From contig KV454014.1 of NCBI GenBank assembly GCA_001661245.1, forward strand, positions 512,954 through 576,953: a DNA stretch of 64,000 bases, written 5' to 3'. A model generated the notes under the pieces. It ran no database searches and had not been told where the DNA came from. It saw only the letters and a list, made by a program, of their open reading frames with translations. This DNA is from Pachysolen tannophilus NRRL Y-2460 (taxonomy: Eukaryota). Positions 53 through 1,672 of the stretch are shown here, piece by piece; the first letter of the stretch is position 1, and each line of letters opens with the position of its first letter. Both the position numbers and the translations under genes were made by a program.

Positions 53-171
53 AGAAGCCAAAAGTTCACTTCCTTTTTTTTTAATAAAAGTATATAAAGA
101 AAAAGAAAAAAGAAAAAAAAATTGTTTAAATGTTTTTATATATAGTTCTGAGAAAAATGACACCTTTTGAT

Positions 172-354
172 TTTGAGTTTGTGCTTGATTCAGATGGAAA
201 TGTCAAATTAACAAAGATTCAAATTGCTACACCAGGTATAAATGTTTGGAATCCTTCCTTCGATGTAACTCCTCATCGATTAATCGATTGTATTGTCACA
301 GAAGACAAGTATTTATTGAAAGATGCGTCTGGAAATTTTCATCTAGAGAAATGA
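172..354 (+). CDS. MRI1: C-terminal segment of methylthioribose-1-phosphate isomerase, inverted relative to the main body
   Basis: [44 protein letters not shown] contains the NPxFDxTP...IxTE C-terminal motif of the Mri1/MtnA/eIF2B family, which the 560-1672 ORF lacks. Confidence 0.85.
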
Positions 355-559
355 TTCAAGTTCTCAAACTTTATAGATATAGAAACAAGAGATAAAAAAT
401 ATAATTATAATAAACTGAAATATATTGCGATAAATAACAAAAGAAATCTGACCATTGAAATCTAAACTTCAATTTCGTAGCTCAATTGATATAAAAAAAA
501 AAATTAAAATAAAATAAAAATAAAAATAAAAAATAATAAAAAAAGATAAACTAAAAATA

Positions 560-1672
560 TCAATGTTCAACAAAATCAATTTCAAAACTGGAATAAAATG
601 TATCCTCTTGGTTTAACTCCCCACCTCTAATGGATGTTAATTCTTTGGAAGGTCTTTGTTCAATAACGATATCACTTCCATCAGCTAGATTAAGATCAAT
701 AGTGGTCTTAGGAGCAGCTCCTATAAACTTAATGTCCTTGAAATTTGAAGCAATTAAGGAAAGTTGGAAAGTTCCTATTTTATTTGCTAAATCACCATTA
801 TGAACAATTCTATCGGCACCAACAATTATATACCTTAGTGGAGACTTATCAGGTAAATCTTGGGATTTTTTTGGAAAAGTTAATGATTCTGCCAAGAAGG
901 ATACCATGTTATCAGTGATCAAAGAAAATGGTATTTTTTCATAATTCAATTCATAAGAAGTAAGTCTAGCTCCTTGGTTATAAGGCCTTGTCTCACACGC
1001 ATAAACGTGGGATAACCAAAATTCGTCATTATCTTCAACGTTATTTTTTGGATTTAATTTTGATTTTGCCCATAAAGACCTAATAATACCTAATGCTGTA
1101 CCATGACCTGATGTTGCCAAAGAACCTGTATTACAAATTGTCATTACCGAGAAAGGACCTTTAAAAGATGAATTTTTCAAATCTTGATAAATATAATCAA
1201 CACCATTTTCGCCAATTTTATAATTATTCACCAAATCATCTTCAAACAACTTAATACTGTAATCCTTTAACTTCAGTAATAATTCTTTTGGATCAGTATT
1301 TTGATTTTCACTAATAATTTCCCTTATATCGTTACAAGCATTTAATAAATTTACTGCAGTTGGTCTAGATTTTATCAAATAATCAATTCTCTTGTGTAAA
1401 TTATTGATAAAACTGGAATAGTTTGACAAATCATAATTAAAAACTTGAGCTTCCCCATTGTTCACAACATCATTCAATTCCAGTACAATTGAGAAAGAAC
1501 CAACAATAGCAATTGCAGGTGCACCTCTGACTTGCATCGCTTTAATAACATTAAATCCATCATCTATATTCTTCACTTGTATATACTTTGTCTGATAAGG
1601 AATCAAAAGCTGATCTAAAATCAACAATTTACAATTTTCCTTATCAAACTTTATAGCTTCTAAAGTCGACAT
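560..1672 (-). CDS. MRI1: Methylthioribose-1-phosphate isomerase, N-terminal ~355 aa; last ~14 codons are probably non-homologous read-through
   Basis: [59 protein letters not shown] and ANKIGT motifs. ATG at 1672. Confidence 0.93.

What the first reader, a model, noticed from the sequence alone, without database searches (positions are those of the whole stretch)
160..610. MRI1 is split by a ~430-bp inversion: its C-terminus lies on the opposite strand
Seen: the minus-strand MRI1 ORF loses homology after ...GGELNQED (~602). The missing conserved end ([10 protein letters not shown]...NPSFDVTPH...IVTE) is on the plus strand at 172-354. Flipping 172-601 joins CAA GAG GAT|TTT GAG TTT in frame and gives a full-length protein of about 417 aa. 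The segment is bounded only by a 3-bp inverted microhomology (GAT 169-171 / ATC 602-604); other junctions within about 10 bp also fit. Neither piece shows stops or frameshifts. Inference: this is a very recent inversion that would disable methionine salvage, a heterogeneous or invertible segment, or a misassembly. The lack of decay and of long inverted repeats makes an artefact at least as likely.
Basis: partly seen in the sequence, partly recalled or inferred. Interest (0 to 1): 0.8.

Follow-up and report, generated by a model that had tools for sequence, protein, structure and literature searches.

The report
Assembly error splitting yeast MRI1 gene
The broken methionine-recycling gene is almost certainly a mistake in this yeast's genome assembly, because public sequencing data of the same organism show the gene whole, so the shortened protein in the databases is probably wrong.

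Summary
The split is really in the window: MRI1 codons 1-357 lie on the minus strand (1672-602) and the conserved last 59 codons on the plus strand (175-354). It is not in the sequencing data. Contigs of 4 of 4 public runs laid here (at most 3 samples, 2 studies) carry both opposite-strand joints, which make MRI1 contiguous, and no listed contig bridges the window's junctions. The flipped segment is 174-602 (equally 175-601), with 1 nt of microhomology. Four other salvage-pathway genes are intact. A 673-kb survey found no third case, with limited sensitivity. Verdict: a local assembly artefact (about 93%), most likely small contigs or gap patches inserted in reverse. A rare inverted subclone cannot be excluded from contigs alone. 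The practical value is curation: the 370-aa database protein is a truncated artefact, and the 426-aa one probably is.

The parts
174..602 (.). Segment that is reverse-complemented in this assembly relative to the public contigs (429 bp; 175-601 gives the same result)
   Evidence: Joints at L001 1674/2101, 1673/2102 and 1674/2103 (window = L001 minus 1500); equivalence of the two cuts
602..1672 (-). MRI1 (methylthioribose-1-phosphate isomerase) codons 1-357
   Evidence: PF01008 E 7.9e-49; TIGR00512 309 bits, cut-off 279; P0002 residues 4-362
175..354 (+). MRI1 codons 358-416 and stop codon, displaced to the plus strand by the flip; holds the conserved NPxFDxT motif
560..601 (-). 13 spurious codons and a stop that end the assembled ORF; they are the other strand of the true 3' non-coding region
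   Evidence: the 370-aa product P0001 is held by NCBI, UniRef and nr
   Evidence: skipped repeat L001 1985-2049; A11 run at 493
1..52 (+). 3' end of the upstream neighbour, a 1667-aa ORF (clathrin heavy chain by my recognition; no family scan run); unaffected
4779..6047 (-). Second split gene, N-terminal part: PTM1-like membrane protein (426-aa ORF 6047-4767 as assembled)
   Evidence: PF21902; P0136 residues 8-362 map to 5969-4779
4156..4497 (+). Second split gene, C-terminal part on the opposite strand; implies a second flipped segment of about 620 bp (ends near 4146-4165 and 4773-4794, not resolved)
   Evidence: P0136 residues 364-455 map to 4156-4434, E 1.9e-16; 4 of 10 homologues hit it at E 6.5e-8 or better; profile score 285 against 229 bits as assembled
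6089..6366 (.). Nearest scaffold gap (N run)

Best explanation
The organism, a budding yeast, has one ordinary intact MRI1 gene of 416 codons that works in methionine salvage. In this assembly a 429-bp piece holding the last 59 codons and the 3' non-coding region was written in reverse complement between its two flanks, with no base lost or gained. Shown: the contiguous gene in public contigs, the exact ends, the restored frame. Inferred: the cause. Most likely the draft broke at an A/T-rich tract, and a small contig or gap patch covering it was put back in the wrong orientation. The same step would explain the second flip of about 620 bp, 3.5 kb away, which also holds a homopolymer tract.
For:: 4 of 4 runs laid (X5, X1, X4, X3; at most 3 samples, 2 studies) each have a contig across the left joint (52-53 letters on the short side) and a contig across the right joint (255 or more). 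Their depths equal the flanks (115/112, 28/25, 176/177, 135/139). No listed piece bridges the window's junctions. X1 agrees with the window at the three listed differences in two homopolymer sites (window 1743, 1750, 1938) where the other three runs differ, so it is the run most like the assembly's data, and it is still contiguous; the contig-defined cut gives 416 aa, the length of the closest homologue P0002; bit score against P0002 rises from 488 to 587. Only 1 nt of microhomology and no inverted repeats at the ends. MTAP, MtnB, enolase-phosphatase and ARD families each match one open frame over the cut-off, without stops. Other assembly scars: N gaps in the window and a 346-bp exact duplication on both sides of an N gap in L072.
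Against: Only contigs were laid; they drop rare variants, so absence of the inverted form is not proven. I cannot show that any run is the assembly's own material. A perfectly balanced flip without lost or doubled bases is also what a clean end-joining event would give. The public contigs show no branch at either breakpoint, so why the draft broke exactly there is unexplained. The survey found no further case in 673 kb, so the error is not shown to be genome-wide. The second flip was not tested with reads.
Confidence: 0.93

Rival explanations
1. A real, recent inversion, made by end-joining without homology, fixed in the one subclone used for this assembly; it would knock out MRI1 and, by a second event, the PTM1-like gene.
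For: Balanced ends with 1 nt of microhomology; no decay in either piece; the assembly's own DNA is not proven to be among the runs laid.
Against: All 4 runs laid are contiguous, including X1, which shares the window's homopolymer lengths. Over 4.8 kb the runs differ from the window only at homopolymer sites, so they are the same or a near-clonal strain. Two gene-breaking inversions within 4.6 kb in one laboratory clone would be needed.
Confidence: 0.04
2. A reversible switch or a low-frequency inverted subpopulation: both orientations exist, and the assembly caught the minor one.
For: Contigs drop rare variants (tool note), so a minor form is not excluded.
Against: No inverted repeats at the ends. 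Contigs run unbroken across both joints at full flank depth in 4 of 4 runs, with no alternative contig listed. An assembler would rarely write a minor form as consensus (inference).
Confidence: 0.02
3. The two pieces are real and are expressed apart (split enzyme or trans-splicing), the plus-strand ORF using its ATG at 157.
For: The plus-strand ORF 130-354 is open and has ATGs.
Against: The DNA contigs show the gene contiguous. The top 119 homologues are single proteins of 375-437 aa, although that search only admitted proteins of 203-648 aa.
Confidence: 0.01

Closest known systems
MRI1 / MtnA, methylthioribose-1-phosphate isomerase (TIGR00512, PF01008; solved relatives 1W2W, 4LDQ, 2YRF)
   Same: Restored protein of 416 aa, 71% identical over 416 columns to P0002 and 62-65% to Kuraishia capsulata and Komagataella kurtzmanii proteins; PDB relatives of P0002 carry this name.
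   Different: Nothing biological; only the assembly differs.
Inversion-type misassembly in draft genomes (small contig or gap patch in wrong orientation; general knowledge)
   Same: Small segment flipped against the read-derived contigs, around a low-complexity tract, in a gapped draft scaffold.
   Different: Ends are exact, with no N, loss or duplication; two cases lie within 4.6 kb. The software step is not identified.
Programmed flip-flop inversions of yeasts (mating-type inversion of Ogataea and Komagataella, 2-micron FLP/FRT; recalled, no call)
   Same: A segment seen in the opposite orientation in a yeast genome.
   Different: Those need long inverted repeats at the ends and show both orientations; here there is 1 nt of microhomology and one orientation in the contigs.

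Membership tests
MRI1 / MtnA (TIGR00512) | Score above the curated cut-off | tested here: met
   N-terminal piece alone 309.1 bits, cut-off 279; C-terminal piece E 7.6e-10 on profile positions 297-330
MRI1 / MtnA (TIGR00512) | Single chain with the C-terminal NPxFDxT motif | tested here: met
   Motif at residue 383 of the contig-defined 416-aa form; present in 95 of 119 homologues by exact pattern
MRI1 / MtnA (TIGR00512) | Isomerase activity, growth on methylthioadenosine | not testable with these tools
   Needs an assay
Programmed invertible segment | Inverted repeats or recombinase sites at both ends | tested here: not met
   1 nt at the breakpoints; longest exact inverted match within 30 nt of both ends is 6-7 nt; no long inverted pair at these ends
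Programmed invertible segment | Both orientations present in the population | tested here: inconclusive
   One orientation in contigs of 4 of 4 runs; contigs drop rare variants
Fixed gene-disrupting inversion (pseudogene) | Inverted junctions present in sequencing data of the organism | tested here: not met
Fixed gene-disrupting inversion (pseudogene) | Decay of the pieces or of the pathway | tested here: not met
   No stops in either piece; four other pathway genes whole
Assembly misorientation | Read-derived contigs join the flanks to the opposite ends of the segment | tested here: met
   Both joints in 4 of 4 runs
Assembly misorientation | The assembly's own raw reads lack the inverted junctions | not testable with these tools
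   Only contigs were served, and the source run is not established

The most novel reading that the evidence does not exclude
Both small inversions are real and arose together, without repeats, in a subclone or minor cell population: a local burst of clean 400-600 bp flips that clips the 3' ends of two neighbouring genes and switches off methionine salvage.
Probability: 0.04. Interest if true: 0.55.

Novelty: not a real feature. Interest (0 to 1): 0.07.

Why it matters
As biology it does not matter: the gene is an ordinary MRI1. As curation it does. The truncated 370-aa protein is the only member of its cluster and is held by NCBI, UniRef and nr, so comparative studies could score this yeast as lacking a working MRI1. 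The 426-aa PTM1-like protein P0135 is probably truncated the same way. For the scan, opposite-strand splits in this assembly should be checked against reads before they are ranked.

Tried and rejected
A second MRI1 copy or haplotig: none. A further contig in each run with a 27-nt, 3-mismatch likeness to window 163-189: it is another locus, a hexamer-repeat stretch at G000:C4:279162, and does not bridge the junction. Expression: no RNA holder listed. Metagenome contigs gave 1 related locus at 55% identity, not examined further. For the second gene: word-based search found only itself; BLASTP of the plus piece with the genome's own PTM1 paralogue was not significant (E 1.6); Pfam gave nothing under E 4; the Atlas gave no usable hit; only the exhaustive search supplied homologues. 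Survey for more cases: 673,000 bases, 319 coding segments, 150 opposite-strand neighbour pairs, 59 selected, 108 of 109 pieces scanned (one of 9 aa dropped, one trimmed to avoid N). The same Pfam family on both sides in 1 of 59 pairs, MRI1 itself; the PTM1-like control was missed, and several pairs had no hit on one side, so this is a weak negative. Suspected truncation of the FMO gene at 29628-31130: rejected, the frame is open back to an intron-like boundary. Three paper searches listed nothing on this case; I saw listings and abstract openings only.

Full report
Observation. The window is G000:C4:512954-576953 of a 12.6-Mb, 197-contig yeast assembly. The minus-strand ORF 1672-560 encodes 370 aa of an MRI1/MtnA protein (PF01008; TIGR00512 at 309 bits, cut-off 279). 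It aligns with 11 homologues up to about residue 357 and then stops matching. The missing end lies in the plus-strand ORF 130-354. The closest homologue, P0002 (416 aa), maps with residues 4-362 on the minus piece and 358-416 on the plus piece, both without stops, and G000 has no other copy.

Read test. Five public runs from two studies hold 0.90 of the sampled words of window 1-2200; none is on record as RNA. I laid four of the five (X5, X1, X4, X3; at most 3 samples) on L001, which covers the window up to 3300 and 1500 bases upstream. All are contigs, not raw reads. Each run has one contig that runs along the left flank to window 174 (173 in X5) and goes on into the segment from its far end (601; 602 in X5), and one contig that joins 603 to 174 on the opposite strand. 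Depths of these contigs equal those of the flanks. No listed piece crosses the window's own junctions; one piece of the table was not shown. The only other contig laid near the junction is a 27-nt likeness from a repeat at G000:C4:279162. The runs differ from the window only at homopolymer sites: X3, X4 and X5 have longer runs at window 1743-1750 and 1938, where X1 agrees with the window, and X1 lacks one letter at 2175. I read this as under-called homopolymers shared by the assembly and X1 (inference). X1 still shows the contiguous gene.

Exact anatomy. The joints define the segment 174-602; 175-601 gives the same sequence, so the ends share 1 nt. Reversing it puts codon 357 (604-602, minus) directly before the codon at 175-177, and gives one open frame of 416 codons plus stop. 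The score against P0002 rises from 488 to 587 bits over the full length. There are no inverted repeats at the ends. The displaced piece carries the NPxFDxT motif, found by exact pattern in 95 of 119 homologues, and residues 375-405 are on average 70% identical to them. MTAP, MtnB, enolase-phosphatase and ARD each match one stop-free frame over the family cut-off, so the rest of the pathway is whole.

A second case. The PTM1-like ORF 6047-4767 (minus, 426 aa, PF21902) also ends early. An exhaustive search gave 10 homologues besides itself. P0136 residues 8-362 map to 5969-4779 on the minus strand and residues 364-455 to 4156-4434 on the plus strand (E 1.9e-16); 4 of the 10 hit the plus piece at E 6.5e-8 or better. 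A profile of 8 of them scores the best flipped forms at 285 bits against 229 as assembled, but cannot fix the ends: the top candidates span 4146-4165 and 4773-4794. This stretch lay outside. From its length, X3 record 6 should run on to about window 6107, where the N gap starts, so it probably crosses this region unbroken, but its orientation there was not shown (inference).

How widespread. I scanned 673,000 bases of G000, the window included, for coding segments beside an opposite-strand neighbour. Both window cases were picked up among 59 selected pairs. Pfam found the same family on both sides in 1 of 59, MRI1; it missed the PTM1-like control. So no third case is shown, and the test is weak. 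The same data gave another assembly scar, a 346-bp exact duplication on both sides of an N gap in L072.

Mechanism. Shown: the organism's public DNA contigs hold an intact MRI1, and the assembly holds a base-exact flip of 429 bp. Inferred: both flipped segments contain an A or T run of 11-12, the public contigs end at the A-rich tract 485-549, and the window's gaps sit at such tracts. The simplest cause is a small contig or gap patch over a low-complexity tract that was inserted in reverse. I put this artefact reading at 0.93. A real inversion in the clone used for the assembly (0.04) needs two gene-breaking events within 4.6 kb that no run shows for the first. A reversible or minority form (0.02) lacks repeats and any alternative contig, though contigs drop rare variants.

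Comparison and novelty. The protein is a plain MRI1. The segment fails the tested features of programmed yeast inversions (recalled systems; no call). Three full-text searches listed nothing on this case; I saw listings and abstract openings only, read no paper and no supplement, and make no claim beyond those searches. The finding is not a real feature of the organism. Its use is to flag P0001 (370 aa; NCBI, UniRef, nr) and probably P0135 (426 aa) as truncated by assembly error.

Noticed in passing
window 4156-6047: PTM1-like membrane protein gene split across strands like MRI1; second flip of about 620 bp, shown by homology only.
   Followed up: partly
L072 3566-3911 and 4350-4695 (G000:C3, near 574 kb): 346-bp exact duplication on both sides of an N gap, doubling a short coding exon (TOM7-like by my recognition); looks like unmerged contig ends.
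   Followed up: partly
window 602-1672 and 61652-63340: CTG codons may not mean Leu here: MRI1 residue 64 aligns to V in 107 of 119 homologues and residue 133 to polar residues; one malate synthase CTG aligns to A in 1 of 2 solved relatives, the other to R in both. A hint of a changed CUG code, known from some yeasts (recalled); too few sites to decide.
   Followed up: partly
window 1743-1750, 1938: Homopolymer runs are shorter in the window than in 3 of 4 runs laid; probably consensus errors in non-coding DNA.
   Followed up: yes
window 29628-31130: Flavin monooxygenase gene whose long frame has no early ATG; an intron-like boundary with repeated branch-site-like words lies just upstream. Not broken.
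   Followed up: yes
window 51414-55198: Two DUF3533 genes head to head.
   Followed up: no
window 61652-63340 and L042 2502-4244: Two malate synthase genes on the same scaffold, about 200 kb apart.
   Followed up: no
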